IMG/VR virus record: IMGVR_UViG_2711768046_000005 | DNA from: a virus | Taxonomy: Duplodnaviria; Heunggongvirae; Uroviricota; Caudoviricetes | DNA length: 35,930 nt | Direction: 5' to 3' (one strand) | In this document: positions 1 to 35,930 of the stretch, one piece after another | How positions within the stretch are numbered: position 1 is the stretch's first letter | Layout: each line of letters starts with the position of its first letter | Position numbers and translations under genes: made by a program | Notes under the pieces: generated by a model | Database searches by the model: none | Seen by the model: the letters and a program-made list of their open reading frames with translations, nothing else | What the model was told of the DNA's origin: nothing

Positions 1-1362
1 ATGTTTAAACCGGAACTCCTTTCCCCGGCGGGAACGCTGAAAAATATGCGTTACGCTTTCGCTTATGGCGCAGATGCTGTTTATGCGGGCCAGCCGCGTT
101 ACTCCCTGCGTGTGCGCAACAACGAATTCAACCACGAAAATCTTCAGCTCGGCATCAATGAAGCCCACGCGCTGGGGAAAAAGTTTTATGTCGTGGTCAA
201 CATTGCACCGCACAACGCCAAGCTGAAAACCTTTATCCGTGACCTGAAACCGGTGGTGGAAATGGGGCCGGATGCGCTGATTATGTCCGATCCAGGGCTG
301 ATTATGCTGGTGCGTGAGCACTTCCCTGAAATGCCGATCCATCTCTCGGTACAGGCTAACGCCGTGAACTGGGCGACGGTGAAATTCTGGCAGCAAATGG
401 GCCTGACCCGCGTGATCCTCTCTCGCGAGCTGTCGCTGGAAGAGATTGAAGAGATCCGCAATCAGGTGCCGGATATGGAGATCGAGATCTTCGTTCACGG
501 TGCGCTGTGCATGGCCTACTCCGGTCGCTGCCTGCTCTCTGGCTATATCAACAAGCGCGACCCGAACCAGGGTACCTGCACCAACGCCTGCCGCTGGGAG
601 TACAACGTCCAGGAAGGGAAAGAAGATGACGTTGGCAACATCGTACACAAGTACGAGCCAATTCCGGTGCAAAATGTTCAGCCGACGCTGGGTATCGGCG
701 CGCCAACCGACAAAGTGTTTATGATCGAAGAAGCCCAGCGTCCGGGCGAGTATATGACCGCGTTTGAAGATGAGCACGGCACTTACATCATGAACTCGAA
801 AGATCTGCGCGCCATCGCCCATGTTGAACGCCTGACCAAAATGGGCGTGCATTCGCTGAAAATCGAAGGCCGTACCAAATCTTTCTACTATTGCGCACGC
901 ACCGCGCAGGTTTACCGTAAAGCTATCGATGACGCCGCTGCGGGCAAACCGTTCGATACCAGCCTGCTGGAAACGCTGGAAGGTCTGGCGCATCGTGGCT
1001 ATACCGAAGGTTTCCTGCGTCGTCATACCCACGACGATTATCAGAACTACGAATACGGTTATTCGGTTTCTGACCGCCAGCAGTTTGTTGGTGAGTTTAC
1101 CGGTGAGCGCAAGGGGGAGCTCGCGGCGGTAGCGGTGAAAAATAAATTCTCCGTTGGCGACAGCCTTGAGCTAATGACGCCGCAAGGCAACATTAACTTT
1201 ACCCTTGAGCATATGGAAAACGCCAAAGGTGAAGCTATGCCGGTCGCACCAGGCGATGGTTATACTGTGTGGATCCCGGTGCCGCAGGATCTTGAGCTAA
1301 ATTACGCGCTGCTGATGCGTAATTTCTCCGGGGAAACCACGCGTAACCCCCACGGTAAGTGA
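1..1362 (+). CDS. yegQ: U32-family peptidase-like protein YegQ (TrhP, tRNA hydroxylation)
   Basis: Full 453-aa ORF starting at base 1. The sequence (MFKPELLSPAGTLKNMRYAFAYGADAVYAGQPRYSLR...) is recognised as E. coli YegQ. The downstream neighbour is cyaR, as in E. coli K-12. Confidence 0.85.
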   Translation: MFKPELLSPAGTLKNMRYAFAYGADAVYAGQPRYSLRVRNNEFNHENLQLGINEAHALGKKFYVVVNIAPHNAKLKTFIRDLKPVVEMGPDALIMSDPGLIMLVREHFPEMPIHLSVQANAVNWATVKFWQQMGLTRVILSRELSLEEIEEIRNQVPDMEIEIFVHGALCMAYSGRCLLSGYINKRDPNQGTCTNACRWEYNVQEGKEDDVGNIVHKYEPIPVQNVQPTLGIGAPTDKVFMIEEAQRPGEYMTAFEDEHGTYIMNSKDLRAIAHVERLTKMGVHSLKIEGRTKSFYYCARTAQVYRKAIDDAAAGKPFDTSLLETLEGLAHRGYTEGFLRRHTHDDYQNYEYGYSVSDRQQFVGEFTGERKGELAAVAVKNKFSVGDSLELMTPQGNINFTLEHMENAKGEAMPVAPGDGYTVWIPVPQDLELNYALLMRNFSGETTRNPHGK

Positions 1363-3098: not shown

Positions 3099-3577
3099 TA
3101 TCCCGCCCCCGTCATATCCGTGAATTTAGTCGCCATACTGCCAGCCTTACCGATGAGCGATTCCGCCTGTTTACCGATATCGCCATAAAGCGCGGCCAGT
3201 GATTCATCAACGCGGGTGAGCGACAGCGTAAAATCAATTTTCCGGGGTGTGCCGTCTGCAAAGAAAATACTCCCTGTTTCACTCACCCTGCTGATGACAT
3301 ACATGCCGTAAATCATGCCAGTGCCATCCAGCAACGGCCACGCCCGGCCTTCCTCTGCCATCAGCCTGAGCGTGGTCATCGTCAGCTTTCCGCCGGTCAG
3401 TTCGGGATAAAGCACACCGGCAAGCGTCATGTTTTCCTCACCCACACCGAGAAACTGATAGGCATCCCGTTTACCAATACGGGAATTTGACGGCCAGCGA
3501 TAATCCGATTCACGTTGCATGGTCTGGTGCGGCAGCGTCTGGCGCATAAAAACAAACATCCCTAACGCGAGCATCAT
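3098..3577 (-). CDS. U: Tail protein U (159 aa)
   Basis: P2 gpU length and position between T and D. Confidence 0.9.
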   Translation of the reverse strand: MMLALGMFVFMRQTLPHQTMQRESDYRWPSNSRIGKRDAYQFLGVGEENMTLAGVLYPELTGGKLTMTTLRLMAEEGRAWPLLDGTGMIYGMYVISRVSETGSIFFADGTPRKIDFTLSLTRVDESLAALYGDIGKQAESLIGKAGSMATKFTDMTGAG

Positions 3578-3591
3578 TTTTCGTCACCTCC

Positions 3592-6039
3592 TTAACCGTC
3601 ATGCATCATGCTGGCACGGGCGCGCGCACGTTTATCCCGCTCGTATTTTTCGAGCGCATCCTGTAACTGGCGGTCGAGCTGTGTTCCCGGTGCATTACCA
3701 CCCGGCAGGCTGATGTGATATTCGTTTTTACTCTGGTCTACATACGAGCGGCCAGCCGGTGCCGTGACCGGCTGGTAAGCCTGATAGCCTGCATAAGAGC
3801 TGGTCGCCGGAATATAACCACCTGTGCCATACGTGGCGGCATGAGTTCTGGCGGCAGTCTGGTCAAGTGCGTCAGACTCTTTGTTGATGACGCCGAGTTT
3901 TTCCAGTACCCAGTCAATACCGCTGCGCAGTTTGTTGAACGCATTAAGCGGCAGCATCAGCGCGTCAGCCAGTGCCTGCCCGAACATGACGCCCGTGTCA
4001 CGGCAACGGTTCAGGGTGTCCTGGGTGGCTTTGACCGGGGCAATCAGGTTTTTAAACCACTGCCACGCGGCCTGTAACTTTTCGCCCAGCCAGTCAAACA
4101 CCGGTTTCAGTGGCGAGAACAGCTCCCCCACCGGCGCAAATGCTGCTTTCAGCCCTTCAACCACACCACCAAAGAATGCGCTGACAGGCTCCCAGTATTT
4201 ACGGATAAGCAACGCCCCGGCGACAATGGCAGCCACCACAGCCACAACCGGCCAGCTAATAGCCCCGATGGCGGTCATAACAGCACTGCCAACCGTCGTG
4301 AAGATTGCCCCCATTGCGCCTGCTGCCGCGATGATGGCATTGATGCCGGTGATAACCGGCCAGGCTACAAGACCAATTGCACCGATGATGCCAATCAGCG
4401 CCAGCGCGCCACCGGCAATGAGGCCAATGGTTGACGCCAGTGATTTGTTTTTCTTGATCCAGCCGTCGAGTTTTAACACATACTTTGTGGCCGTCTGCGT
4501 GAGATTACGCAGTGCGCCTTCCTGCTGGTCAAACAGGTCAGTCCCCACCGCCTCATAAGCAGACTGAAACTCCTTAAAGTCACCGCCGAGGTTATCCTGC
4601 ATGATATTTACCAGCTCGGCGGTCTTCCCGTCTGAGGCTTTAAACGCAGCGGTCAGTTTGTCCAGCTTTCCGGTTGAGGCGGCAGTCATCAGCACGGCGG
4701 CGGCTGAGCTGGCTTCCTCCCCGAAAATGGTTTTCATGTATTCAGCCTGCTGGGCAGTACCGAGCCGGTTTTTCTCAAAACTGGCCTGCATTTCTTTCAG
4801 AATGGTAAATACTGGTCGGGTGTTTCCCTTACTGTCTGAGGTTTTCACGCCAAGCTCTTTGAGTGCATCCCATGCTTTTCCCGTCGGTGCCTGCAGGCGA
4901 CTTAACACGGCACGGCTTCCCGTCCCCGCCATTGAGCCTGTGATTTTTGCATCATGCAGCGCTCCGACCATTGCGGCGGTTTCTTCAATGCTGACACCGG
5001 CATTTTTTGCCACAGGTGCAGCATAGGTCAGCGCATCGCTCATACCGTCAAAATCGGCGGCGGTTTTGTTCATCGTCATGGAGAGAACATCCCCGATATG
5101 AGCGACCTTATCGTTTGAAAGCTGAAAGGCGGATTTCATCCCCATCAGCAGGGCAGCGTTTTCTTCCATCGTGCGACGGTTCGCCAGCGCCATATTCAGC
5201 GTGACCGGCGTTGCCGCCTGAATGGCATCAACATCCCCACCGGCTTTCGCAATAATAATCTGCGCACCGGCTGCATCATCTGCCGAGGCGGCGGTATTGT
5301 CGCCGAGCTGGCGCGCCTGTTTGCGTAGTGCAGCCATTTCGGCGGAGTCTTTTGCCACTCCGAGCACGGCCTGCAATTCTGAGTTTTTCTGCGCAAACTC
5401 ATAACCGGGCATCAGCAGCTTAACTCCGGCCATCGTTCCCGCCGCCGCAATCCCCACACCGGCAGCGCCCACCGAGGCCATATTTCCGGCCAGTTCCTTG
5501 CCTGCCTGATAACGCTGTTTGACTGCGTTAAGTTTTGCCTGTTGCGCACTGACACGCGCCAGCGCGTCGCGCTGACGGTTAAGCTGTGCGGTGGTTTCAC
5601 TGATACGGTTTTTCAGTCCCTGCTCATCATGTGCAAGATTGCGGGTATTAATTCCCACAGCGGCCAGTTCCCGTTGCTGGCGTTTAACGGAATCCGTCAG
5701 GTGGTTACATTTCGCCTGTAAGTCCTCCGCCGCACGCTTTGCGGATTCCAGCACTTTCGCCTGAGCACGGGTCGGACGTTCGGTGTTTTTAAACTGTGTG
5801 GCAAGGGCTTCGGCTTCCTGCCGTGCCTTTTCAAGTGCATGACCAGTCACGGCAAGCTGTGCGCTGGTCTTGCGAAATCCCTCAATACGGGATGCGTGAC
5901 CGTTCAGCTCGCGCAGTGATTTTTGTGTTTCCCGGATATCCCCCGACAGCGACTTACTCGCTGTGCGGATGGATTTAAACGGGCGGGATGCCTGGTCAAC
6001 AGCCCTGAGCAATACCTGTAATTTTACATTGTTACTCAT
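3592..6039 (-). CDS. T: Tail tape-measure protein T (815 aa)
   Basis: P2 gpT length. The N-terminus is coiled-coil rich and there is a central hydrophobic Gly/Ala-rich segment. It lies downstream of E/E'. Confidence 0.9.
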   Translation of the reverse strand: MSNNVKLQVLLRAVDQASRPFKSIRTASKSLSGDIRETQKSLRELNGHASRIEGFRKTSAQLAVTGHALEKARQEAEALATQFKNTERPTRAQAKVLESAKRAAEDLQAKCNHLTDSVKRQQRELAAVGINTRNLAHDEQGLKNRISETTAQLNRQRDALARVSAQQAKLNAVKQRYQAGKELAGNMASVGAAGVGIAAAGTMAGVKLLMPGYEFAQKNSELQAVLGVAKDSAEMAALRKQARQLGDNTAASADDAAGAQIIIAKAGGDVDAIQAATPVTLNMALANRRTMEENAALLMGMKSAFQLSNDKVAHIGDVLSMTMNKTAADFDGMSDALTYAAPVAKNAGVSIEETAAMVGALHDAKITGSMAGTGSRAVLSRLQAPTGKAWDALKELGVKTSDSKGNTRPVFTILKEMQASFEKNRLGTAQQAEYMKTIFGEEASSAAAVLMTAASTGKLDKLTAAFKASDGKTAELVNIMQDNLGGDFKEFQSAYEAVGTDLFDQQEGALRNLTQTATKYVLKLDGWIKKNKSLASTIGLIAGGALALIGIIGAIGLVAWPVITGINAIIAAAGAMGAIFTTVGSAVMTAIGAISWPVVAVVAAIVAGALLIRKYWEPVSAFFGGVVEGLKAAFAPVGELFSPLKPVFDWLGEKLQAAWQWFKNLIAPVKATQDTLNRCRDTGVMFGQALADALMLPLNAFNKLRSGIDWVLEKLGVINKESDALDQTAARTHAATYGTGGYIPATSSYAGYQAYQPVTAPAGRSYVDQSKNEYHISLPGGNAPGTQLDRQLQDALEKYERDKRARARASMMHDG

Positions 6040-6515: not shown

Positions 6516-7034
6516 TCACAGGCCGATATTGCGGCGGTGTTGCTCCAGCCGGTCGACGCCGTTCACCTTCTCAATCATGTTGATGGTGTCGATTTCGACC
6601 AGCTCCTTACCGTCCATCGTCAGCCGGAAATAGGTGCAGACCACGGAGATTTTCGACTCGGTGTCTTCTCCCTGTTTGCCCTCGCCGGTGTCGATTTCTT
6701 TCTGACGTCCACGCATGACCACCTCGACGGCCACCGTTTCGCCGGTATCGTCGCGCTGGTAAGAGCCTGCAAAACGAATCGGTACGGCATCCACACCGGT
6801 TGCGGCGTAAAGCTCCCAGATAACCGAATCCGGGAAGCCACCGAGCGACCACTCCATTGACAGCGCATCGTCATCAAGGCCGAGGTCTACCGGTGCGCTG
6901 CCGTTCATCCCCGCACCGCGATAGTTTTCGAGCTTACGGGTCAGTTTTGGTAGCGTGACGGACTTCGCGACGCCCTGATAGCTGTAGCCGTTCAGAAAGA
7001 CGTTCATTAACTTGAGTTTGCGCGGCATTGCCAT
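6516..7034 (-). CDS. FII: Tail tube protein FII (172 aa)
   Basis: P2 FII length and synteny. Confidence 0.9.
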   Translation of the reverse strand: MAMPRKLKLMNVFLNGYSYQGVAKSVTLPKLTRKLENYRGAGMNGSAPVDLGLDDDALSMEWSLGGFPDSVIWELYAATGVDAVPIRFAGSYQRDDTGETVAVEVVMRGRQKEIDTGEGKQGEDTESKISVVCTYFRLTMDGKELVEIDTINMIEKVNGVDRLEQHRRNIGL

Positions 7035-7046
7035 CGGTCAGGCTCC

Positions 7047-8237
7047 TTAATTGCTGTTAACCGAGGTGACCAGATTTGCCAGGTATTTATCGGTAATACG
7101 CTGGCGCAGGGTCAGGTTTTCAAGAGGAGGCACCGGTGTATAGTCGTAGTCGATATACAGTTTTCCGGCCTTGAGGGTTTCCGCATCGTTGGATTCTTCG
7201 CTGAACCAGCAGGTCGCATCCACGATATAGCCGTTTGTTTTCAGCTCACGGAATTTGGCATTGATGCCGTCAACGATGTCGCGAATCAGCGTTGCGGTGA
7301 TGGGCTTGTCCACCGCCCACATGTGCGCCTCAGCCATCGTGTCGGCCATCACCTGCGCGGTGCGGGTGTAGTTTTCAAAGAGGAACAGCGGGTCATCAGA
7401 GCAGGTACGGTTACCCCAGAAGCGGAAACCGTCGCGGCGAATCAGCGTTGTGACGCCTGCCTCGTTCAGCAGGTCAGCATCGGTGCCGGACTCCTGCAAA
7501 TCCCAGAATACAGATGCGCTGATGCCGGTAACACCGTTTACCCCGACGTTGGACAGCGTTTTATGCCAGCCCTGCTCCTGGTCGATTTTAGCACGCAGCC
7601 CCAGCGCACGGGCGGTGGCATACGCGGTGGCGGTAGTGCTGCTGACCGTATCCCATGCGAGGAAATCCGGCCAGATGACCATCAGCTCACGCTGGCTGAA
7701 ATTCTGGCGGTAGGCTTTCACCTCGGAAATGGTTTTACAGCCCCATGCGCTGATATACCCGAAAGCGCGCAGCTTCTGACAGACTGATGCCAGTGCAACA
7801 GCCACCTCTTTGGTGTCCAGTCCCGGCACGCCGAGAATACGCGGTTTAACACCGGTTACCGACTCTGCCGCCAGCAGGGCTTTCAGTCCGGTATACTGAC
7901 CGTTTTCGTCAGTGGTGCCGATGATATTGGAAACGGTCTGCGCGAGTTTCGTTTCTTCGTCGTCGCCGGTGCCGTCTTCAACACGCACGACAACGGTGAC
8001 CGGTTTTGACTGGTCAGCGATGGCCTGCAACGATGCCGCCAGCGTGCCTTTTTTACCGGCCTTTGCAATTGCGCTCTGCACATTGGTAATCAGCACCGGT
8101 TTATTGAGGGGGAAGGTTTCCGCATCCGCATCGCTGGCCGTGCAGACCATGCCGACAATGGCAGTGGATACAGTGGAAATGACGCGGGTGCCGTCGTTAA
8201 TCTCCAGCACCTGCACGCCGTGATGATAGTCACTCAT
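7047..8237 (-). CDS. FI: Tail sheath protein FI (396 aa)
   Basis: P2 FI length and synteny. Confidence 0.9.
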   Translation of the reverse strand: MSDYHHGVQVLEINDGTRVISTVSTAIVGMVCTASDADAETFPLNKPVLITNVQSAIAKAGKKGTLAASLQAIADQSKPVTVVVRVEDGTGDDEETKLAQTVSNIIGTTDENGQYTGLKALLAAESVTGVKPRILGVPGLDTKEVAVALASVCQKLRAFGYISAWGCKTISEVKAYRQNFSQRELMVIWPDFLAWDTVSSTTATAYATARALGLRAKIDQEQGWHKTLSNVGVNGVTGISASVFWDLQESGTDADLLNEAGVTTLIRRDGFRFWGNRTCSDDPLFLFENYTRTAQVMADTMAEAHMWAVDKPITATLIRDIVDGINAKFRELKTNGYIVDATCWFSEESNDAETLKAGKLYIDYDYTPVPPLENLTLRQRITDKYLANLVTSVNSN

Positions 8238-8309
8238 CCGTTTAACTCCGTGGTTAATGGGTGCAACTATTTTCTGTTGGGCAGTGCATGAGACGCTATT
8301 TGACCTGAC

Positions 8310-8327
8310 TGGTCAGTGGATGAAACA
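8310..8327 (-). promoter_or_regulatory. Putative Ogr-responsive dyad of late promoter P_F (TGT-N12-CCA on - strand)
   Basis: This is an imperfect version of the P2 late-promoter dyad TGT-N12-ACA. Its centre at 8318.5 is about 56 bp upstream of a plausible start downstream of a GAAAAT -10-like hexamer (8274-8269). Confidence 0.35.
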
Positions 8328-8334
8328 ACAGATT

Positions 8335-8361
8335 AAAGAAAAGGCGGGCAATTCGCCCGCC
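8335..8361 (-). terminator. Rho-independent terminator (end of upstream late H-G transcription unit / cargo boundary)
   Basis: The stem is ggcgggc (8343-8349) / gcccgcc (8355-8361), followed on the - strand by ttttcttt. Confidence 0.7.
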
Positions 8362-8421
8362 TGTCCTGATTTGAACTCACTCATTTTCCGACTGACAATT
8401 TACATAGCCCAAAAGTTATCA

Positions 8422-8457
8422 AATCTGACAGTCTGCTTTGAGTGAGAAGCAGACATT
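8422..8457. repeat. 36-bp inverted-repeat element, copy A (left border of FRG cargo island)
   Basis: The sequence is aatctgacagtctgctttgagtgagaagcagacatt. Its reverse complement matches 10229-10264 at 11/11 plus 15/16 outer positions, with a divergent 9-nt centre. It can itself fold (gtctgctt/aagcagac). Confidence 0.8.
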
Positions 8458-8751
8458 TACTTAACCGGATAGCAAGAGACTTCATACTACAGCTCATACA
8501 TCATGGTTGATCCCGGAGTTTTCAGCAATGGAAATTGCCCACATGATCGTACCGTAACCACATTAGAAGCAGGTTCACTTTGTGAATTTTGATTGTGTCA
8601 CCCTATCAGTTTTGAATTTTTATAAAAAATATTCGCAAATTTGTGAATTATGAGAGACATACGAGCATGGACAACCAATGTTACTTTCATACACAATGAA
8701 GCAACATGATAAAAATACACTGACTTTAGTAAGTAAATTTAGGAGATTGCG

Positions 8752-10086
8752 ATGTTTAGCTTAATCATGGCCGGAGAACCGGACGTTTTTGACCGCTGGC
8801 CGTGTATGGACCCTGAGCTTAAAGAAGGCAAGGAAAGCTTCTCGATGTCCCGCATGCTGGAAGGCACCCCAAGCAATATTTACAGAAAATTAACACCAAT
8901 AAGACCCGATACCTTAAGAGTACTCGCCAAGCTACCGGTGTTGTTCATGACCGAAATTTATACAAAAGATGATGAATATGATACAAACAAGTACATCAGG
9001 ATCAGGCTTGGGGAAATAAGAAATTTACGTAAAGATGGTGGCGATATTTTATTTTCTTTCAAGATTAATCATGATTTTGGAGAAATAACGAATCCCCAAA
9101 CGACATTATATAAAGAAACCCTAGGACTAGGATCTTTCGGGTTAAGTCGTACACATTGGGCAGTAAAAAATAAGGATTTGAATATTGTTCTGGAATTACT
9201 TGGTTTAAACAAAAAAAATAGCCATCTGAAAGGTACAATCAAATTAAAAAAACAAACATACCCAGTAGTCGAGAATATTATAGATTATCTTAATTTCATT
9301 AAGAAAAACTTTCGTGATGGTCTCATTACCTTCTATCGTGGACACTCTAAAAGCTCATATGAGCTTGTCCCCTCTCTTTACAGAAAAAATCAAAACGGGA
9401 CGTACAGGCATCTTGCTTCAGAATCTGATTTAGTACGTGAAATACTCAGCGCAAGACCAAATGAATTTAAGGAGGATAAATTTACGATTGATAAACTTGT
9501 CCGCATGCAGCATTATGGCTTGCCTACAAGACTCTTAGACATTACATCTAACCCACTGATAGCATTATATTTTGCTTGCTGTTCGAACCCCGATGAAAAC
9601 GGACAGGTGATTGCGTTTTCAACAAACAGAAAGAAAATTAAATATTTCGACTCAGACACAGTGAGCTGTATAGCAAACTTATCACTTTTATCTTACGAAG
9701 AGTTGGAAAAATTGTCTTCCATTGATGCCAGAAAAGGTAGTATGGAGTTACCTGAACTCACTGATAAACTTGCAGACCTTATACAGAATGAAAAATCATA
9801 TTTCAGAAACAGAATAATCCCTGATGACTTAAAGAAAGTTGTTTTCCTTAAGGCAAAAATAAATAATGAACGCATACAATCTCAGGCAGGAGCTTTTCTT
9901 CTGTTCGGACTTGATCCCATTTTACCGGAAACAGATGCTGAGTTTCCTCTTAACAGAGTGGAGATAGCGAACAAAAATAAAATTCTGGAAGAGCTGGCAC
10001 AGCTTAATATATCCGAAAGCACTGTATATCCCAGCATGGAGAAAACGGCAGCAGAAATTACAAAAAAGTTTTTATCGGTATCATAA
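8752..10086 (+). CDS. FRG-domain protein with an uncharacterised N-terminal domain (444 aa), cargo at the P2 Z/fun position
   Basis: SD AGGAG (8741-8745) lies 6 nt before the ATG. Motifs FYRGH...LVPSLYR (aa 194-211), MQHYGLPTRLLDITSNPLIALYFAC (aa 252-276) and NNERIQSQAGAFLLFG (aa 371-386) fit my recollection of the FRG family (PF08867). The gene is AT-rich and on the strand opposite the flanking late genes. Confidence 0.65.
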   Translation: MFSLIMAGEPDVFDRWPCMDPELKEGKESFSMSRMLEGTPSNIYRKLTPIRPDTLRVLAKLPVLFMTEIYTKDDEYDTNKYIRIRLGEIRNLRKDGGDILFSFKINHDFGEITNPQTTLYKETLGLGSFGLSRTHWAVKNKDLNIVLELLGLNKKNSHLKGTIKLKKQTYPVVENIIDYLNFIKKNFRDGLITFYRGHSKSSYELVPSLYRKNQNGTYRHLASESDLVREILSARPNEFKEDKFTIDKLVRMQHYGLPTRLLDITSNPLIALYFACCSNPDENGQVIAFSTNRKKIKYFDSDTVSCIANLSLLSYEELEKLSSIDARKGSMELPELTDKLADLIQNEKSYFRNRIIPDDLKKVVFLKAKINNERIQSQAGAFLLFGLDPILPETDAEFPLNRVEIANKNKILEELAQLNISESTVYPSMEKTAAEITKKFLSVS

Positions 10087-10228
10087 AGGGATAAACTAAA
10101 GGAAACGAAAACTAAGACTGCGCAGTCTTCAGGTGGAAGTACTCATCGGGAACGGTTTCAGGGGCAAAAACTGGAAGCTCCAATGGCCTTGAGCTGCTCC
10201 CTATAAATTAACATATCTCAATGTTATC

Positions 10229-10264
10229 AATGTCTGCTTTTGGCACAGAGCGGACTGTCAGATT
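10229..10264. repeat. 36-bp inverted-repeat element, copy B (right border of FRG cargo island)
   Basis: The sequence aatgtctgcttttggcacagagcggactgtcagatt is the inverted partner of 8422-8457. Confidence 0.8.
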
Positions 10265-10316
10265 AGGCTTTACTCTGTGCCATAGATATGTAAGCTCACA
10301 CCAGAGCTCATGCAAC

Positions 10317-10844
10317 TTATTGCGGCATTTCCGGCCATTCAGGATTTGCAGGATCCACACGGCTGACCAGAACGCTGTAGCGTTCCCATGACTCCAGTCG
10401 TGCGCGCTCCTCATCCGTCGCCATATTCAGCCTGACGGCGCGTTCCAGCGGCTGGATAACTGATTCAGCTTCGGAAAGTAACGCGGCCTTTTGTGATTCG
10501 GCCTGTTGTTGCTGTTCGTCTGCCGTATAAATCCGCTTAATCACGGCACCATCCTTAAACATCCATTTACCTGAGTCATCAGCACGTCGGTTGGAGGTAA
10601 TATCAGGAACCTCGACAACGCTGAAACCTTCAGGGTTAAGCGTTGAAGCATCTCTGGTGATGCCGACAATTATATTATTCTCGTCGTAAACAATCTTTAT
10701 CGTGTCTTCCTGAAAATTACTTACTTCCTCATACCAGTTTTTTCCGTCCTCAGAGTAAAGCCAGATAACTCCGTGTTTCTTTGTTAACTCATACTGTTCC
10801 AGTGTTTTAGCGTTACCCGCTTTTATGTTCTTTAAGTGCATCAT
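10317..10844 (-). CDS. G: Tail fibre assembly chaperone G (175 aa)
   Basis: P2 gpG length. The conserved C-terminus ...[38 protein letters not shown] is recognised. Confidence 0.9.
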
Positions 10845-15529: not shown

Positions 15530-16273
15530 ATGGATAAATATCAAATCTGGGAAAATCAAAAAGACACCATCGCCCACCAAGAGTATTTAAAAATCTCCGA
15601 CACCAATTTACTTGGACATATGCATATTGCCAATTACGAAGTTGCCCAACATGAATTAAGCAAATTCAACTCCCCTGACATTGTTTCCCGTCATTCATTT
15701 AACAGAGACAAATTTAAAAAAGAACATTTAAACATATCAAGACACCTTTTCAATTATATATCTTCAGCATTATCATTTAGAGATTCAACGCGCAACCTAC
15801 TTAAAACAAAAGCATTAAATATTGCCGACATTAAAATCAAATCAGAGGCATTCATCAATCATGAATTCCGAAATAATCCAGTAATAAAATTAATGGAGGA
15901 CTTAAGAAACATCCTGACGCATCAAAACATGATCGCCCCATCAATATCATCATTCATGCACCTCCAAAGAAATATAAACATGCACGGCTTTTCATTTAAG
16001 ATTGAAAGAATCTTAAACAATGACAGAACCACCAAACAAACAAAAGAATATTTAATCTCACTAAAGCAAAAAAACTTATTCATTTTACCGATAATAGAAG
16101 AATACCAATACACGACTCTTAAGTATCAACACTGGCTTTTAGCAAGTATCTACACTGTTCATCAAGATACTTACCAAGAATACTGGAATGCGAGAAAAAA
16201 CATCATGAACGAATGGGGAGGAGACACTCAGCTAATACCTAAAGAGAGTGAGCTCACTTATTTAACCAGATAA
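15530..16273 (+). CDS. Hypothetical 247-aa protein with two RNxxxH (HEPN-like) motifs, cargo at the P2 orf30 position
   Basis: SD AAGGA (15517-15521) lies 8 nt before the ATG. The gene is very AT-rich and divergent from V. Motifs are LRNILTH (aa 125-131, nt 15902-15922) and QRNINMH (aa 146-152). I recognise no other family. Confidence 0.6.
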   Translation: MDKYQIWENQKDTIAHQEYLKISDTNLLGHMHIANYEVAQHELSKFNSPDIVSRHSFNRDKFKKEHLNISRHLFNYISSALSFRDSTRNLLKTKALNIADIKIKSEAFINHEFRNNPVIKLMEDLRNILTHQNMIAPSISSFMHLQRNINMHGFSFKIERILNNDRTTKQTKEYLISLKQKNLFILPIIEEYQYTTLKYQHWLLASIYTVHQDTYQEYWNARKNIMNEWGGDTQLIPKESELTYLTR

Positions 16274-25969: not shown

Positions 25970-27037
25970 TCATTTCTTAGCTTTCACAACCGGATGCGCG
26001 CGATCATGTCCACCGCCACGATGCTTAGAAAATATAACCTTTTCATTAGTAAAAGGTTTTTGGCCATAGACACTATCATAGTGGAAAAAGACGTTCGGAA
26101 GATGAGGCACACGGATGAATCCATACTTCACTCTAGTATCACCGATGACCCCAAAAACCCTTGTACTTACTGGGTAGCATAGTTCACCACAACGCATCAC
26201 TAATTCATCTGCTGTTGGGCGTTCAGAAGGTTCCAATTTTAAACAATCTTCTATAAGTTTAATTATTTCATTTGCCAATGGCGCATACTGTCTATTTGAA
26301 AATATAAAGTCAGGGTAAGGAACATGCGTGCCAGAAAGTATTTTTGGTATAGCCATATAACCAATACCAAAAGGGTATTTTCCAGTAAGAATCCTGAACA
26401 TCATCGCACCCAATGCCCAAATATCTGTAGGTTTCGAAACCTTACCTTGACTCTGTATGATTTCCGGTGCCATATATGGCAAAGCCCCGATAGCCGTTTG
26501 CGAAGAACTAATTGAATCTTGACCATTTCTTGCAGCCTCATCAATTTCATCTCCGGCCATCTTTGAAATGCCGAAATCCGTAATTTTTATCTCTGTAGCA
26601 TTGATACCACCGCCTACCATTATATTTGAAGGTTTGAGGTCCCGGTGTATGACGTCAACATGATGCGAAGCAGACAGAGCTTTAGCTAAATTATGAAATA
26701 TTTTAGCAGTTAAATATGGATCAACACTTGAATAAGTGTCTAAAATAGCCTTATCCAAGTCAACTCCATCAATAAATTCCTCCGTTAAAAACTCTCTACC
26801 CTCATCATCAATGAAGTAATCTAAGGTTTTAGCCACATTAGGATGATTAACCCTTGATGCTAATATTGCACTTCTATGAAACCTTTTTTCAGCAGATTTA
26901 TTTTTGGGAGTTTTGAGAGCCACATGCCTCGAGAGAATATTATCCATTGCCAAATAAACTTTTTGCATACCGCCTTCACCAATCTCCCTCAATATTGTAT
27001 ATCTGCTAACTTGAATTCCTGGAGTCAGATTTATCAT
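25970..27037 (-). CDS. Hanks-type Ser/Thr protein kinase with C-terminal cold-shock-domain-like module (355 aa)
   Basis: Kinase motifs are IGEGGMQKVY, VALK (K42), HRDLKPSN (D132), DFG (D154), LPYMAPE, DIWALG and ERP. C-terminal aa 291-352 read FGVIGDTRVKYGFIRVPHLPNVFFHYDSV...EKVIFSKH. This resembles CSD RNP1 (K-G-F-G-F-I) and RNP2 (V-F-V-H-F). SD GGAGGTG is present, and the ATGA overlaps the upstream gene. Confidence 0.85.
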   Translation of the reverse strand: MINLTPGIQVSRYTILREIGEGGMQKVYLAMDNILSRHVALKTPKNKSAEKRFHRSAILASRVNHPNVAKTLDYFIDDEGREFLTEEFIDGVDLDKAILDTYSSVDPYLTAKIFHNLAKALSASHHVDVIHRDLKPSNIMVGGGINATEIKITDFGISKMAGDEIDEAARNGQDSISSSQTAIGALPYMAPEIIQSQGKVSKPTDIWALGAMMFRILTGKYPFGIGYMAIPKILSGTHVPYPDFIFSNRQYAPLANEIIKLIEDCLKLEPSERPTADELVMRCGELCYPVSTRVFGVIGDTRVKYGFIRVPHLPNVFFHYDSVYGQKPFTNEKVIFSKHRGGGHDRAHPVVKAKK

Positions 27038-28098
27038 AACACCACCTCCGGATGGGAAAGGTCAAATGTAATGAAGACCCGCTCTTTTCTTGGCCGAGAA
27101 GTCTCTCCCAGAATAATAACACATGAATCAGGCAAAATATTATATTGCTTTGCAGCTATATTATTCACATACACCTCACCACTTAAACTCGATATATAAA
27201 ACTCTGAACCAGAATATTTCACCTCAATAGTCCCGACCCCTGAATTATTAAAAGCCGCAGATTTATTTGTTGAAGAAATGATGACGGGTGGAGTGTTATC
27301 AGAGATTAACAATGCTCTATGAGAGTTGTAGAGAACGAATTTTTTTAGAGTCTGACACACATCAGCCATATCAGGTCTCTCACAAGGATTCGTATCTAAA
27401 CATTGGAAAAGCAATTCTTTTACCTGAGTTGGTAACTGTATATTAGAATTATCAAAAGGATTAGACAATAATTTTTTGGGTAAAACTCTCATTTCCGGTG
27501 GTAGTGGGGTCTTAGCCAAAAACATGGCCGTTACAGCAAAAGCATATGTATCTATGGATTTTGTAAACGCTACTTGATGTAAAAATAATTCAGGTGCAGC
27601 ATATGTTGGGGTTCCTTTAAAACCTATTGTATTAGCTTCATCAACATTTCTAGATAGTCCGAAGTCATAAATCTTCACTACTCCCTCAGAATCAATTTTC
27701 ATGTTCCCAGGCTTGATATCCCTATGAATAATATCATGAGAATGTATCTCAGAAATACCCGAAGATATTTGCCACAAAATTTTAATCAAATCTTCAGAAT
27801 TTAATATGCGATCCTCTACTTCCAATAATGAAGGTCCGTCAACATACTCTTCGACTATAGCAATTCCTTTACCTTGATAATTAATAACATCATAAAGCTC
27901 TACTACATGTTTTGATCTTAATTTCATCAATGCTGATAACTCATCCATCATTCGAGGAGAATCATCAGGATTACTTATGGACTTTATAGCGACAAATCTT
28001 TCGAGGTGAGTATCCAAGCATTTGATCACGCAACCAAATCCTCCCGAAGCCTCTTCTTCAGTCCTCTTATATCTTGCAGGGAGAGTAAAATTAGTCAT
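27034..28098 (-). CDS. Hanks-type Ser/Thr protein kinase with FHA-like C-terminal beta domain (354 aa)
   Basis: Kinase motifs are SGGFGCV, VAIK (K39), HRDIKPGN (D126), DFG (D145), GTPTYAAPE and CERP. The C-terminal roughly 90 aa (...IEVKYSGSEFYISSLSGEVYVNNIAAKQYNILPDSCVIILGE...) have an FHA-like strand pattern. SD AAGGAG is present, and there is an 8-nt overlap (ATGACTAA) with the phosphatase gene. Confidence 0.85.
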   Translation of the reverse strand: MTNFTLPARYKRTEEEASGGFGCVIKCLDTHLERFVAIKSISNPDDSPRMMDELSALMKLRSKHVVELYDVINYQGKGIAIVEEYVDGPSLLEVEDRILNSEDLIKILWQISSGISEIHSHDIIHRDIKPGNMKIDSEGVVKIYDFGLSRNVDEANTIGFKGTPTYAAPELFLHQVAFTKSIDTYAFAVTAMFLAKTPLPPEMRVLPKKLLSNPFDNSNIQLPTQVKELLFQCLDTNPCERPDMADVCQTLKKFVLYNSHRALLISDNTPPVIISSTNKSAAFNNSGVGTIEVKYSGSEFYISSLSGEVYVNNIAAKQYNILPDSCVIILGETSRPRKERVFITFDLSHPEVVL

Positions 28099-29257
28099 CT
28101 TTATCTCCTTTAGTGGAGTTTTTCTCAGAGAATGAAATATCTAACTGTGAAATATTATCTAACTTATCATTATTGTTAGCTTCGATAACATTCCTTCCCT
28201 CATCACTCTTTATATTACTATTTTTTTTCTTTGTACGTGATTTCCTTTTCGATACATTTTTTTTGTTAGAAATTTCATTACTGCATTCTAACTCAGTAAC
28301 TTTTCTATCAATAACATTTTCAACCGTAGCTGAGTTAGGTATATCTAACGGCGCAGGTTGCACGCTAATTACTTTCATCTCACCAAAAGGATCCCATAAA
28401 TTAATTACATCCCCAGATGATACATCCAAAGCACTTAGGATGTTCGAAATCTCAACTACCGCAATCGACGCATTATCAAATCCACCAAACCAACTAGCTA
28501 GATCTATAACTCTTTTAGCGAACACTCCAGTATTATTGGAGTGAGCATATAATTTTCTCAAATTATTACTGTCAATGGTATGAGCACCATCTGAAGTTAA
28601 TGCAACCACCCCAGGTACGAGCCGAATATCGTGAAAATGTATCTCAAGAACACCATCAAGACCTATAAACTGTACTAACTCGCCACCTAACCTAGAATCA
28701 ATAACACCTGAGTCACTACCAAGATGCTCATTATATTTCTTTGCCAATACAGCTAATGTATCATCCTCACTAATTTGTTTTATGTGTTCAGCATTAATGG
28801 AATATATGCGACTATCCCCGACATTTATTGCTGTAATGTTATCGGAGTCATCTACAGCTAAGGCAGATAACGTAGCCCCACCGTTCCCATTATATACTTT
28901 CAAAACCGATTCATTTGCTTTTAAAACGGCGATTTCAAGACATTGTCTAATTGGCAAGCCTGAGTGTTTAATTATCTCGGTAAAAAAAGATGATACGGTC
29001 AATGAAGCAGCATTCGCTCCCCCTTCCATCCCCCCCATACCATCTGCTAAAGCGATGACAATCATGTCCTTATTCTTACTAAAAGGACGAAATTTTAATA
29101 CAGCTACCCGGTCTTGGTTCTCTTTCCTAACTAAACCTATGTCTGTAGCAATAGCTGCAGGTAGCATAGATACTCTTCGTACAGATGAAGAGATATTTTT
29201 TCTATGCAGCCAAGCGTGTATCTGTTCATGAAGGATCTCGTAAGAGTCTCGACTCAC
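28091..29257 (-). CDS. PP2C (PPM)-family Ser/Thr phosphatase with Lys/Asn-rich C-terminal tail (388 aa)
   Basis: A GTG start is preceded by a strong SD GAGGAGG. PPM motifs are RKENQD (D49), ALADGMGG (D72), GGATLSAL, VGDSRIY, LTSDG (D223) and DNASIAVV (D261). The tail at aa 325-388 is low complexity. Confidence 0.85.
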   Translation of the reverse strand: MSRDSYEILHEQIHAWLHRKNISSSVRRVSMLPAAIATDIGLVRKENQDRVAVLKFRPFSKNKDMIVIALADGMGGMEGGANAASLTVSSFFTEIIKHSGLPIRQCLEIAVLKANESVLKVYNGNGGATLSALAVDDSDNITAINVGDSRIYSINAEHIKQISEDDTLAVLAKKYNEHLGSDSGVIDSRLGGELVQFIGLDGVLEIHFHDIRLVPGVVALTSDGAHTIDSNNLRKLYAHSNNTGVFAKRVIDLASWFGGFDNASIAVVEISNILSALDVSSGDVINLWDPFGEMKVISVQPAPLDIPNSATVENVIDRKVTELECSNEISNKKNVSKRKSRTKKKNSNIKSDEGRNVIEANNNDKLDNISQLDISFSEKNSTKGDKDD

Positions 29258-34322: not shown

Positions 34323-35336
34323 ATGGCAATCAAAAAACTCGATGATGGTCGATATGAAGTGGACATCCGCCCTACTGGACGTAATGGAAAACGCATCCGT
34401 AGGAAGTTTGATAAGAAAAGCGAAGCTGTCGCTTTCGAGAAATACACGTTGTACAACCACCACAATAAAGAATGGCTATCAAAACCAACAGACAAGCGAC
34501 GTCTGTCGGAGCTGACACAGATCTGGTGGGATTTAAAGGGTAAACACGAAGAGCATGGGAAATCTAATCTTGGAAAAATTGAAATCTTCACAAAAATAAC
34601 GAATGACCCATGCGCATTTCAAATTACGAAATCGCTTATCAGCCAGTACTGCGCCACCCGAAGAAGTCAGGGTATTAAACCTTCGAGTATCAATCGTGAT
34701 TTAACATGTATTAGCGGCATGTTTACAGCCCTGATTGAAGCGGAGTTATTCTTTGGTGAGCACCCTATCAGAGGGACAAAAAGGCTTAAGGAGGAAAAAC
34801 CAGACACAGGCTATCTCACGCAGGAAGAAATTGCCTTACTGCTTGCTGCTCTTGACGGCGACAACAAAAAGATTGCGATTCTTTGCCTGAGTACTGGAGC
34901 ACGTTGGGGAGAAGCAGCTCGTTTGAAAGCAGAAAATATCATCCATAACCGCGTCACGTTTGTTAAAACGAAAACAAACAAACCACGCACCGTCCCGATC
35001 TCAGAGGCTGTTGCCAAAATGATCGCGGATAACAAACGAGGTTTTTTATTCCCTGATGCTGATTACCCTCGCTTCAGACGAACAATGAAAGCAATAAAAC
35101 CGGATTTGCCAATGGGGCAAGCCACACATGCACTAAGGCACAGCTTTGCCACTCATTTCATGATTAATGGAGGAAGTATTATCACGCTACAACGGATACT
35201 AGGTCACACGCGGATTGAGCAAACTATGGTTTACGCTCATTTTGCGCCAGAGTACCTTCAGGACGCCATTTCTCTTAATCCGCTAAGAGGTGGTACTGAG
35301 GCCGAGAGTGTCCACACAGTGTCCACAGTAGAGTAA
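34323..35336 (+). CDS. int: Tyrosine integrase (337 aa)
   Basis: P2 Int length and sequence. Catalytic signature: ARWGE (R), HALRHSF (H-x-x-R), GHTRIEQTMVYAH (H...Y). Confidence 0.9.
   Translation: MAIKKLDDGRYEVDIRPTGRNGKRIRRKFDKKSEAVAFEKYTLYNHHNKEWLSKPTDKRRLSELTQIWWDLKGKHEEHGKSNLGKIEIFTKITNDPCAFQITKSLISQYCATRRSQGIKPSSINRDLTCISGMFTALIEAELFFGEHPIRGTKRLKEEKPDTGYLTQEEIALLLAALDGDNKKIAILCLSTGARWGEAARLKAENIIHNRVTFVKTKTNKPRTVPISEAVAKMIADNKRGFLFPDADYPRFRRTMKAIKPDLPMGQATHALRHSFATHFMINGGSIITLQRILGHTRIEQTMVYAHFAPEYLQDAISLNPLRGGTEAESVHTVSTVE
35309..35327. promoter_or_regulatory. Int arm-type binding repeats (2 x TGTCCACA, 11-bp spacing), int-side arm
   Basis: Perfect direct octamers lie at 35309-35316 and 35320-35327 inside the int 3' end. 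They mirror the pair at 1574-1592. Confidence 0.55.
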
Positions 35337-35612: not shown

Positions 35613-35930
35613 TCACTCTCCACATTTGAATGTCAGACGAGCGACGCCATGTAATCCTGCACCTTCTGTCTTCAGGTCAACTATCTGCATTTTTTTGCCC
35701 TGAGTAACACAGAAATGAACTGCATCATTTTTTACTATATTTTCTGCACCAGATATTCTACCCCTGGCTAAAGAAGCTTCGGCTTCGGTGTAGTATTGGT
35801 TATCGAGTTTACGCTGAATATTACTTTTATATGCAAGACCAAATTTACCGATACTTGTCTCATCATTATGTACAGCACACCCAGACATAAGAAAAACACT
35901 AATTAATGATATAGCAGCTATCTTTTTCAT
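35613..35930 (-). CDS. yegR: Small lipoprotein YegR (105 aa)
   Basis: The signal and lipobox MKKIAAISLISVFLMSGC are present, and the sequence is recognised as E. coli YegR. It neighbours the P2 remnant / cyaR locus in K-12. The ORF starts exactly at the window end. Confidence 0.8.
   Translation of the reverse strand: MKKIAAISLISVFLMSGCAVHNDETSIGKFGLAYKSNIQRKLDNQYYTEAEASLARGRISGAENIVKNDAVHFCVTQGKKMQIVDLKTEGAGLHGVARLTFKCGE

What the first reader, a model, noticed from the sequence alone, without database searches (positions are those of the whole stretch)
8752..10086. Orphan FRG-domain protein occupying the P2 Z/fun exclusion locus: candidate single-gene defence
Seen in sequence: an AT-rich 1.33-kb gene sits between FI and G on the strand opposite the late genes, with a good SD. 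It carries the hallmark FRG-family motifs: FYRGH, QHYGLPTRLLDITSNPLIALYFA, and a later NxRIxxQxGxF. An N-terminal domain of roughly 150 aa that I cannot assign contains ...FGLSRTHWAVKNKDLNIVLELL. Established knowledge: in P2 this position holds Z/fun, which blocks phage T5. As far as I know, FRG-domain proteins have no established biochemical function. Inference: the position, the moron-like architecture and the domain-of-unknown-function content make this a plausible new exclusion or defence gene.
Basis: partly seen in the sequence, partly recalled or inferred. Interest (0 to 1): 0.7.

Follow-up and report, generated by a model that had tools for sequence, protein, structure and literature searches.

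The report
Prophage FRG defence-candidate gene, two domains
A foreign, AT-rich gene sitting in a known defence hotspot of a P2-like prophage encodes a protein that joins a predicted nucleic-acid "reader" domain to a predicted NAD-using toxin-like (FRG) domain. It is very probably an anti-phage defence gene, but it is already catalogued as an untested candidate and nobody has shown what it does.

Summary
ORF 8752-10086 (+, 444 aa, 37% GC against 51% for the rest of the prophage) lies between P2 FI and G. It has a good Shine-Dalgarno sequence, all the quoted motifs and a Pfam FRG hit (E 2.8e-22).

The defence reading has strong circumstantial support but is not new:
- The protein matches PADLOC candidate PDC-S15 (E 7e-99), one of 145 untested candidates.
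- The G/FI locus is the published second P2 defence hotspot.
- Aravind's group has predicted that FRG is an ADP-ribosyltransferase (ART)-fold NADase-like immune effector.

Found here:
- This domain is a swappable module, found elsewhere fused to TIR, SEFIR, Abi_C and KAP-NTPase domains.
- Homologues recur in both P2 hotspots, in lambdoid prophages and in integrase islands.
- The same 1826-bp cassette, encoding the identical protein, sits in Qin-like prophages in 39 complete E. coli genomes and in P2-like prophages in only 2. In both it is bounded by shared hairpins.

Best model: a single-gene, abortive-type defence in which a nucleic-acid sensor gates an NAD+-consuming or ADP-ribosylating effector. 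The mechanism is inferred, not shown.

The parts
8430..10255 (+). The mobile FRG cassette (1826 bp): promoter region, gene and 3' tail, carried as one unit.
   Evidence: It is 99.8% identical to a Qin-like lambdoid prophage (L002) and 98.4% identical to phage Tritos (L001). P2-backbone homology stops at 8458 and resumes at 10244. GC is 0.377.
8752..10086 (+). FRG-domain protein gene (444 aa, stop included). The product is identical to RefSeq WP_001774471.1.
8752..9225 (+). N-terminal domain (aa 1-158). It has a predicted PUA-like (EVE/YTH/ASCH-type) fold and conserved SRxLEgT, LPxLFMxE and RTHWAVK motifs. It is the proposed sensor.
9277..10083 (+). C-terminal FRG module (aa ~176-444; Pfam FRG core aa 193-282 = 9328-9597). 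It is the predicted ART-fold effector. Candidate active-site residues are R196, T265/S266 and Q378; the loop at 371-379 is flexible.
8741..8745 (+). Shine-Dalgarno AGGAG, 6 nt upstream of the ATG.
8430..8751 (+). Co-transferred 5' region with no credible ORF, presumably holding the gene's own promoter. It includes three TTTGTGAATT-type direct repeats at 8580-8654, spaced 30-31 bp apart.
   Evidence: About 280 bp of it, including the repeats, is conserved upstream of the 88%-identical Klebsiella homologue.
8431..8454 (.). Left boundary hairpin (GTCTGCTT-N8-AAGCAGAC), shared by P2, this prophage and the Qin-like cassette. The left recombination junction lies within it.
   Evidence: Folding gives dG -13.5 kcal/mol, z -2.7.
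10229..10282 (.). Right boundary element. It comprises an inverted copy of the left element (10229-10264) and the hairpin TGGCACAGAG...CTCTGTGCCA (10241-10282). The right recombination junction lies within it.
   Evidence: Folding gives dG -24.2 kcal/mol, z -3.5.
7047..8237 (-). P2 FI tail-sheath gene, the left anchor of the hotspot.
10317..10844 (-). P2 G tail-fibre assembly gene, the right anchor of the hotspot.
8342..8362 (-). Terminator-like GC hairpin with a T-run on the late-gene strand, in the P2 backbone between the cassette and FI.

Best explanation
The gene is a self-contained anti-phage defence moron carried in the second (G/FI, 'fun') defence hotspot of a P2-like prophage. The protein has two domains that the structure model packs into one body.

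The N-terminal ~155 aa form a PUA-like beta-barrel of the EVE/YTH/ASCH kind. I propose it is the sensor and that it recognises an infection-specific nucleic-acid feature, most likely a modified base or nucleotide in phage DNA or RNA.

The C-terminal ~270 aa FRG module has an ADP-ribosyltransferase-like fold. I propose it is the effector, held inactive until the sensor is engaged. Once active, it consumes NAD+ (as an NADase) or ADP-ribosylates an essential macromolecule. That stops phage replication at the cost of the infected cell, i.e. an abortive-infection type of outcome.

Shown here: the ORF, its foreign origin and mobility, FRG and PDC-S15 membership, purifying selection, the mobile-element and defence contexts of homologues, and the modular swapping of the N-domain with known defence effector domains.

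For: 1. Locus. The G/FI site is a published P2 defence hotspot holding fun and three validated systems. The cassette is a low-GC insertion with its own 5' region.
2. Family. Pfam FRG E 2.8e-22. PADLOC PDC-S15 E 6.7e-99. PDC candidates were derived from genes embedded in BREX/DISARM/type I RM loci.
3. Context of homologues.
- The 45%- and 59%-identical E. coli paralogues sit in P2 hotspot 1, between portal and gpA. One is next to a retron-like reverse transcriptase.
- The 50%-identical Klebsiella homologue sits at the tail-fibre/tail junction of a P2-like prophage.
- The 88%-identical homologue sits at a lambdoid prophage end beside colicin/immunity genes.
- The Morganellaceae and Sinorhizobium homologues sit in integrase islands with DUF87/HerA, Fic, CAP12-type TIR, MqsA and a methyltransferase.
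- The identical cassette sits beside hokD in Qin-like prophages and in phage Tritos.
4. Effector slot. The N-domain family (74 representatives) also occurs fused to CAP12/Pycsar-type TIR, TIR_2/bSEFIR, Abi_C, a KAP NTPase (QatA/PifA-like) and a possible TM segment. FRG therefore occupies the position that known NADase or abortive effectors take.
5. Folds. The AF2 model has pLDDT 85.4 and pTM 0.85.
- BFVD gives an RNA-binding protein (prob 0.97) and ASCH (prob 0.75).
6. Literature. FRG is placed in the ART superfamily as a likely NADase immune effector.
7. Selection. dN/dS is 0.15 for FRG and 0.39 for the N-domain. That pattern fits a conserved enzyme coupled to a faster-evolving sensor.
8. No partner ORF is present in the cassette.
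Against: - No phenotype exists. No experimental paper on FRG or PDC-S15 was found, and PDC candidates are explicitly untested.
- A canonical catalytic Glu of the ART [QE]xE motif cannot be identified. The invariant residue at the equivalent place appears to be Q378 followed by G380, so the chemistry may differ from that of classical ARTs.
- The invariant N-domain residues are mostly polar or charged (R34, E37, T39, E68, R133, T134, H135) plus one Trp (W136). This is not an obvious aromatic cage.
- No N-domain fusion to a nuclease was seen, unlike modification-dependent restriction enzymes.
Confidence: 0.5

Rival explanations
1. Direct, non-abortive immunity that follows type IV restriction logic. 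The PUA-like domain docks on modified phage DNA (for example hmC, glucosyl-hmC or 6mA). The FRG ART-fold domain then ADP-ribosylates that DNA or its transcripts, as DarT, Scabin/pierisin or CmdT do. Replication is blocked without NAD+ depletion or cell death.
Against: The alternative partners of the N-domain are TIR, SEFIR, Abi_C and KAP. These are typical abortive or NAD-depleting effectors, not DNA-directed enzymes. No nuclease fusions were found. The similarity to DNA-modifying ARTs is no better than to protein-modifying ones.
Confidence: 0.15
2. It is a defence gene, but the N-domain is not a modified-base reader. It senses a phage protein (as the PUA-like Lon N-domain binds proteins) or a small nucleotide or second messenger, and then switches on FRG.
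Against: No cyclase or other signal-generating partner gene is present in the cassette. The best-scoring structural neighbours are nucleic-acid readers, not Lon-N.
Confidence: 0.2
3. It is not an anti-phage gene. It is an accessory or selfish prophage cargo with another role: a lysogenic-conversion ART toxin, an addiction or stress module, or an NAD/ADP-ribose-processing enzyme that serves the prophage itself (for example counter-defence).
For: Many ART-fold proteins are toxins of eukaryotic or bacterial cells. In Qin-like prophages the cassette sits next to the hokD toxin. In Klebsiella it sits next to colicin/immunity genes. Phage-encoded NAD/ADPr enzymes are often counter-defence.
Against: Pfam found only the FRG domain, so no secretion or translocation domain was detected. 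No antitoxin partner is present. The family was picked up embedded in BREX/DISARM/RM loci. The N-domain's other partners are recognised defence effectors. The gene recurs in both P2 defence hotspots.
Confidence: 0.12
4. It is a decaying or non-functional hitch-hiker ORF with no current function.
For: Many truncated copies exist in databases. The P2-borne form is rare, in 2 of 5426 complete genomes.
Against: The 444-aa ORF is intact in 37% GC DNA. There are 57 invariant columns across 87 homologues and dN/dS is 0.22. The identical protein is maintained in two unrelated prophage backbones.
Confidence: 0.03

Closest known systems
PADLOC phage-defence candidate PDC-S15 (FRG-domain single-gene candidate; Payne et al., bioRxiv 10.1101/2024.01.29.577857)
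   Same: The FRG module (aa 166-440) matches the best PDC-S15 models nearly end to end (E 6.7e-99). Both are single genes found on mobile or defence loci.
   Different: The best-matching PDC-S15 models are ~300 positions long and cover only the FRG half. The N-terminal PUA-like domain lies outside them. PDC-S15 is itself untested, so membership gives no function.
Pfam FRG (PF08867), placed by Burroughs & Aravind in the ART superfamily as a predicted NADase-like immune effector
   Same: It has the (F/Y)RG motif and the HYGLPTRLLD core, and scores 79.9 bits. The predicted structure resembles R-S-E ART toxins.
   Different: The assignment is purely computational. No canonical catalytic Glu was identified here. 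The original paper could not be read; it was seen only through citing papers.
Modification-dependent (type IV) restriction enzymes with PUA-superfamily readers (EVE-HNH VcaM4I, McrB-N/McrBC, PD-T4-3)
   Same: An N-terminal PUA-like fold is fused to a C-terminal effector in a single polypeptide. PD-T4-3, like this gene, comes from the E. coli pangenome.
ART-fold and NAD+-targeting defence/toxin systems (DarTG, CmdTAC, RES-Xre; TIR/SIR2 NADase effectors of Thoeris, bSEFIR, Pycsar/CBASS)
   Same: The likely chemistry is NAD+ consumption or ADP-ribosylation. The N-domain is exchanged between FRG and TIR/SEFIR effectors.
P2 Z/fun (T5 exclusion) and the other cargo of P2 defence hotspot 2 (Vassallo et al. 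2022)
   Same: It occupies the same chromosomal slot between G and FI, bounded by the same hairpin elements.
   Different: There is no sequence similarity to P2's occupant. The gene is on the opposite strand and is larger (1826 bp against ~880 bp of cargo).

Membership tests
Pfam FRG domain (PF08867) | HMM score above the gathering threshold (25 bits). | tested here: met
   79.9 bits, E 2.8e-22, aa 193-282 on profile positions 3-92 of 94.
Pfam FRG domain (PF08867) | Conserved N-terminal (F/Y)RG motif. | tested here: met
   FYRG is at aa 194-197. R196 and G197 are invariant in 87 homologues.
PADLOC PDC-S15 | Match to the PDC-S15 HMMs. | tested here: met
   14 PDC-S15 models hit. The best is E 6.7e-99, aa 166-440 on profile positions 17-296 of 300.
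PADLOC PDC-S15 | Stand-alone single gene with no obligatory partner. | tested here: met
   No other credible ORF lies in cassette 8430-10255. Neighbours differ in every context.
PADLOC PDC-S15 | Demonstrated anti-phage activity. | not testable with these tools
   The family is one of 145 explicitly untested candidates. No experimental report was found.
ADP-ribosyltransferase (ART) superfamily | ART split beta-sheet fold. | tested here: inconclusive
ADP-ribosyltransferase (ART) superfamily | Catalytic triad (R-S-E or H-Y-E), with the Glu in a [QE]xE motif before beta-5. | tested here: inconclusive
   R196 lies at the end of the first strand. T265-S266 follow strand 261-265. Invariant Q378 lies in a flexible loop before strand 381-385. 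No invariant Glu is at the ExE position: the sequence there is Q378-A-G380.
ADP-ribosyltransferase (ART) superfamily | NAD+ binding and NADase or transferase activity. | not testable with these tools
   This needs biochemistry.
PUA-like superfamily readers (EVE / YTH / ASCH) | PUA-like beta-barrel fold. | tested here: met
PUA-like superfamily readers (EVE / YTH / ASCH) | Sequence-profile membership in the EVE, YTH or ASCH Pfam families. | tested here: not met
   None of 37 diverse N-domains hit these families even at E<=10. The N-domain profile has no PDB sequence match. It is therefore a separate, undescribed family with at most a shared fold.
PUA-like superfamily readers (EVE / YTH / ASCH) | Aromatic cage or pocket that binds a flipped modified base. 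| tested here: inconclusive
   Only W136 is an invariant aromatic residue. The other invariant residues are R34, E37, T39, E68, R133, T134 and H135. Pocket geometry could not be inspected.
   Pfam, NCBIfam and PADLOC find no nuclease domain. The C-terminal half is FRG.
P2 Z/fun | Homology to the P2 gene at the G/FI locus. | tested here: not met
   BLASTP gives E 8.1, i.e. no similarity. DNA homology to P2 ends at the boundary hairpins.
Toxin-antitoxin ART systems (DarTG, RES-Xre, CmdTAC) | An adjacent cognate antitoxin or chaperone gene. | tested here: not met
   No conserved neighbouring ORF is present.

The most novel reading that the evidence does not exclude
The N-terminal domain founds an undescribed family of PUA-like (EVE/YTH/ASCH-fold) nucleic-acid modification sensors. 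These gate interchangeable NAD+-directed or abortive effectors: FRG-ART, TIR, SEFIR, Abi_C and KAP. On this reading the gene would be a 'type IV restriction without a nuclease'. It would read a phage-specific base modification and answer by NAD+ depletion or by ADP-ribosylating the modified nucleic acid. That would also give the FRG domain its first biochemical function.
Probability: 0.2. Interest if true: 0.8.

Novelty: new variant of a known kind. Interest (0 to 1): 0.5.

Why it matters
FRG is a widespread domain of unknown function. This subfamily alone has thousands of homologues, and no experiment on it was found in the held library. This gene offers a compact, natively regulated 1.8-kb cassette in E. 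coli with which to test it.

If the model holds, it would validate a PADLOC candidate family. It would add an ART-fold effector to the list of single-protein defences. It would also define a new sensor domain shared with TIR/SEFIR systems, and so tell us what those systems sense as well.

The cassette's recent exchange between P2-like and lambdoid prophages, through short shared hairpin elements, is a concrete example of how defence cargo moves between the hotspots of unrelated phages.

Tried and rejected
- Single-sequence AlphaFold gave pLDDT 33 and was unusable. It was replaced by an 87-sequence run.
- The AFDB libraries were not available.
- NCBIfam gave no hit.
- Full-length and N-domain profiles against PDB sequences gave nothing real; a designed-TPR hit is spurious.
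- Pfam at E<=10 on 37 N-domains gave only scattered single noise hits.
- Rfam on 8200-10350 gave nothing.
- A search for a partner, antitoxin or small ORF in the cassette found nothing credible.
- Sigma-70 promoter and terminator scans were at background level. Only the left hairpin and the backbone terminator were flagged. The hairpin at 10114-10129 is not more stable than shuffled sequence.
- The N-domain profile search of the 5.8-billion-protein database returned only 22 proteins, mostly fragments, so it is no census.
- Two representative-search hits with many repeats (P0134 Calx-beta, P0183 TPR) were discarded as spurious.
- The Burroughs & Aravind papers (PMC4678834, PMC7685563) were not held, so the FRG-as-ART claim is cited second-hand.
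- T5-specific exclusion by analogy with Z/fun was considered and rejected, because there is no homology.
Full report

The window holds a complete P2-like prophage with its late genes on the minus strand. It runs from host peptidase-U32 DNA at the left end to an integrase at 34323-35336.

Between the sheath gene FI (7047-8237, -) and the tail-fibre assembly gene G (10317-10844, -) lies a 444-aa ORF on the plus strand, 8752-10086. AGGAG lies 6 nt upstream of its ATG. Its GC content is 0.372, against 0.513 for the rest of the prophage.

The profile evidence is strong:
- Pfam FRG (PF08867): 79.9 bits, E 2.8e-22, aa 193-282.
- phrog_4962 (function unknown): full length, E 1e-84.
- NCBIfam: no hit.
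- RefSeq annotates the identical protein (WP_001774471.1) as 'FRG domain-containing protein'.

The gene is under purifying selection. Across 87 homologues of 41-96% identity, 57 columns are invariant. dN/dS against an 88%-identical Klebsiella orthologue is 0.22.

2. WHAT WAS ALREADY KNOWN

The protein matches 14 models of PADLOC candidate family PDC-S15. The best is E 6.7e-99 over aa 166-440. PDC families are 145 untested 'phage defence candidates'. They were derived from genes embedded inside BREX, DISARM and type I RM loci.

Vassallo et al. 2022 already described the fun locus as a second defence-enriched P2 hotspot holding three of their validated systems. Rousset et al. 2022 dealt with the other hotspot, old/tin. 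Neither paper mentions FRG.

[quoted passage not shown] A 2025 survey of Legionella ARTs repeats this. I found no experimental work on FRG or PDC-S15 in the held library.

The gene is nevertheless not a new candidate.

3. THE CASSETTE AND ITS MOBILITY

The foreign segment is 8430-10255 (1826 bp). P2-backbone homology ends at 8458 and resumes at 10244.

The same segment, 99.8% identical and encoding the identical protein, sits in Qin-like lambdoid prophages. There it lies between hokD and the replication/DUF977 genes. At 98.4% identity it is in phage Tritos.

Of 5426 complete E. coli genomes, 41 carry the cassette. A junction-spanning query shows that only 2 have it at the P2 G/FI site. IMG/VR adds three P2-borne and three non-P2 copies.

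In all contexts the cassette is bounded by the same two short structured elements:
- Left: a hairpin, GTCYGCTT-N8-AAGCRGAC, at 8431-8454.
- Right: an element at 10229-10282 that holds an inverted copy of the left one (36 nt, 83% complementary) plus the hairpin TGGCACAGAG...CTCTGTGCCA.

Both fold more stably than shuffled sequence (z -2.7 and -3.5). Phage P2 has the same elements around its own ~880-bp cargo. The exchange junctions fall inside these elements. Homologous recombination at short shared boundary sequences is therefore the simplest explanation for the transfer; this is an inference.

About 320 bp of ORF-free 5' sequence travels with the gene. Some 280 bp of it is conserved upstream of the Klebsiella orthologue, including three TTTGTGAATT-type repeats spaced 30-31 bp apart. 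The consensus promoter scan was at background level.

4. WHERE HOMOLOGUES LIVE

Full-length homologues with the same two-domain architecture occur across Enterobacterales, Aeromonas and rhizobia. The contexts sampled were:

| Homologue (identity to this protein) | Host | Context |
|---|---|---|
| P0092 (45%) | E. coli | P2 hotspot 1, between portal and gpA, next to a retron-like reverse transcriptase |
| P0047 (59%) | E. coli | P2 hotspot 1, with two unknown genes |
| P0059 (50%) | Klebsiella | P2-like prophage, between gpU and the tail-fibre gene, beside an unknown 439-465-aa gene |
| P0025 (88%) | Klebsiella | End of a lambdoid prophage, beside colicin and immunity-like genes |
| P0066 (48%) | Morganellaceae | Integrase island with Fic and a DUF87/HerA ATPase |
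| P0114 (44%) | Sinorhizobium | Integrase island with radical SAM, MqsA-like, a CAP12-type TIR protein and a DNA methyltransferase |

None of these is a housekeeping context.

5. ANATOMY

An AlphaFold model built from 87 sequences is confident (pLDDT 85.4, pTM 0.85). A poorly predicted linker lies at about aa 150-175, and a flexible loop at aa 371-379.

The best hits are PUA-like nucleic-acid readers:

Foldseek against the PDB found nothing significant. Against BFVD it gave a phage 'RNA-binding protein' (prob 0.97) and an ASCH protein (prob 0.75).

I read aa 1-155 as PUA-like and aa ~176-444 as ART-like. The first call is reasonably supported. The second is weak structurally but agrees with the literature.

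At sequence level the N-domain belongs to no described family. A profile of 37 diverse members hits no PDB sequence and no Pfam model, even at E<=10.

6. THE N-DOMAIN IS A SWAPPABLE MODULE

A search of 1.84 billion representative proteins with aa 1-158 found 74 relatives. They share the motifs SRxLEYT, LPTLFxxE and RTHWAVK. E37, R133 and W136 are invariant.

Besides FRG, the C-terminal partners are:
- CAP12/Pycsar-type TIR (three proteins; PADLOC PDC-S35/TIR effector).
- TIR_2/SEFIR (two proteins; one matches bSEFIR at E 5e-58).
- Abi_C.
- A KAP NTPase resembling QatA/PifA.
- A possible transmembrane segment.

Many shorter members have no recognisable partner.

FRG thus occupies the slot that known NAD+-degrading or abortive effectors take. 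This argues that the N-domain is the sensor and FRG the effector. The N-domain also evolves faster than FRG (dN/dS 0.39 against 0.15), as sensors in conflict systems often do.

7. MECHANISM

I commit to the following model. It is a single-protein defence in which the PUA-like domain recognises an infection-specific nucleic-acid feature, most plausibly a modified base. This releases the FRG domain, which consumes NAD+ or ADP-ribosylates a target and so aborts the infection.

My confidence that this is a defence gene is about 0.7. My confidence in this particular mechanism is about 0.3.

Candidate catalytic residues, taken from motif order and predicted strands, are:
- R196, at the end of the first strand.
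- T265/S266, after strand 261-265; this may be the equivalent of the ART S-T-S motif.
- Q378, in the flexible loop before strand 381-385; this may be the equivalent of the ARTT loop and [QE]xE motif.

No invariant Glu occupies the ExE position, so the chemistry may be atypical.

The rivals are:
- DNA- or RNA-directed ADP-ribosylation with direct immunity.
- A protein or small-nucleotide trigger instead of modified nucleic acid; Lon-N is also a structural neighbour, and the invariant residues are mostly polar.
- A non-defence accessory role.
- A dead gene, which conservation makes very unlikely.

8. COMPARISON AND NOVELTY

The gene is a member of Pfam FRG and of PADLOC PDC-S15, although the best-matching PDC-S15 models cover only the FRG half. 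It is not related to P2 Z/fun. It is not a type IV restriction enzyme, because it has no nuclease domain. It is not a toxin-antitoxin ART system, because it has no partner gene.

New relative to what I could find are:
- The fold assignment of the N-domain.
- Its modular exchange among FRG, TIR, SEFIR, Abi_C and KAP effectors.
- The recent transfer of the cassette between P2-like and lambdoid prophages through shared boundary hairpins.

I rate it a new variant of a known kind, of moderate interest. It is a good experimental handle on an uncharacterised but widespread domain, but not a surprise to specialists.

9. OTHER THINGS IN THE WINDOW

Hotspot 1 of this prophage (25970-29257, minus strand, GC 0.375) carries two tandem Ser/Thr kinases of the PD-T4-6/mad6 type and a PP2C-like protein.

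A 247-aa ORF of 33.5% GC lies on the plus strand at 15530-16273, among the tail and baseplate genes. It matches only a PHROG of unknown function.

Noticed in passing
window 8422-8457 and 10229-10282; also L002 ~5001-5028 / 6800-6870 and L003 ~2693-2720 / 3572-3620: The variable cargo of the G/FI hotspot is bounded by two short structured elements that are inverted copies of one another (36 nt, 83% complementary). Each forms a stable hairpin. The same elements flank P2's own ~880-bp cargo and the FRG cassette in unrelated Qin-like lambdoid prophages. The exchange junctions fall inside them. They look like shared recombination or boundary elements for moron exchange.
   Followed up: partly
L002 5001-6826 (E. 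coli 2014C-4587, Qin-like prophage); L001 6001-7826 (phage Tritos): The identical FRG cassette (same protein, WP_001774471.1) lies between hokD and the DUF977/replication genes of lambdoid prophages. That is its commoner home: 39 complete E. coli genomes against 2 with the P2-borne copy. The P2 copy may therefore be a recent acquisition.
   Followed up: yes
window 25970-29257 (- strand): The other P2 hotspot (portal to gpA, the old/tin position) carries a low-GC (0.375) three-gene set. It comprises two tandem Ser/Thr protein kinases matching PADLOC PD-T4-6/mad6 (E 1e-54 and 2e-52) plus a PP2C-like phosphatase (Pfam E 5e-6). It is likely a second defence system in the same prophage.
   Followed up: partly
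window 15530-16273 (+ strand): A 247-aa ORF of 33.5% GC lies on the strand opposite the late genes, between the baseplate and tail-completion genes. It has no Pfam or PADLOC hit and matches only phrog_12680 (function unknown). It is another moron-like insertion.
   Followed up: partly
window 8580-8654: Three direct repeats of a TTTGTGAATT(T/A)TGA-type 14-mer, spaced 30-31 bp apart, lie in the ORF-free region upstream of the FRG gene. They are conserved upstream of the 88%-identical Klebsiella homologue (L054) but not of more distant ones. They may be operator or promoter elements.
   Followed up: partly
L009-L013 ~8432-9829: In Klebsiella P2-like prophages the FRG homologue is always preceded, on the same strand, by an unannotated 439-465-aa gene with no Pfam hit. 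It could be a second cargo gene or a partner in that lineage.
   Followed up: no
L059-L061 ~9613-10069: P2-like prophages that carry the 59%-identical FRG paralogue in hotspot 1 also encode a small ASCH/DUF3850 (PUA-like) protein directly next to gpA.
   Followed up: no
window 1-1362 and 35613-35930; compare L004-L006: The prophage is flanked by a peptidase-U32 gene on the left. On the right, an ORF at 35613-35930 lies beyond the integrase; it was not scanned. The layout resembles the U32-peptidase / YegR / YegS chromosomal site occupied by the P2-like prophages that carry the 45%-identical FRG paralogue.
   Followed up: no
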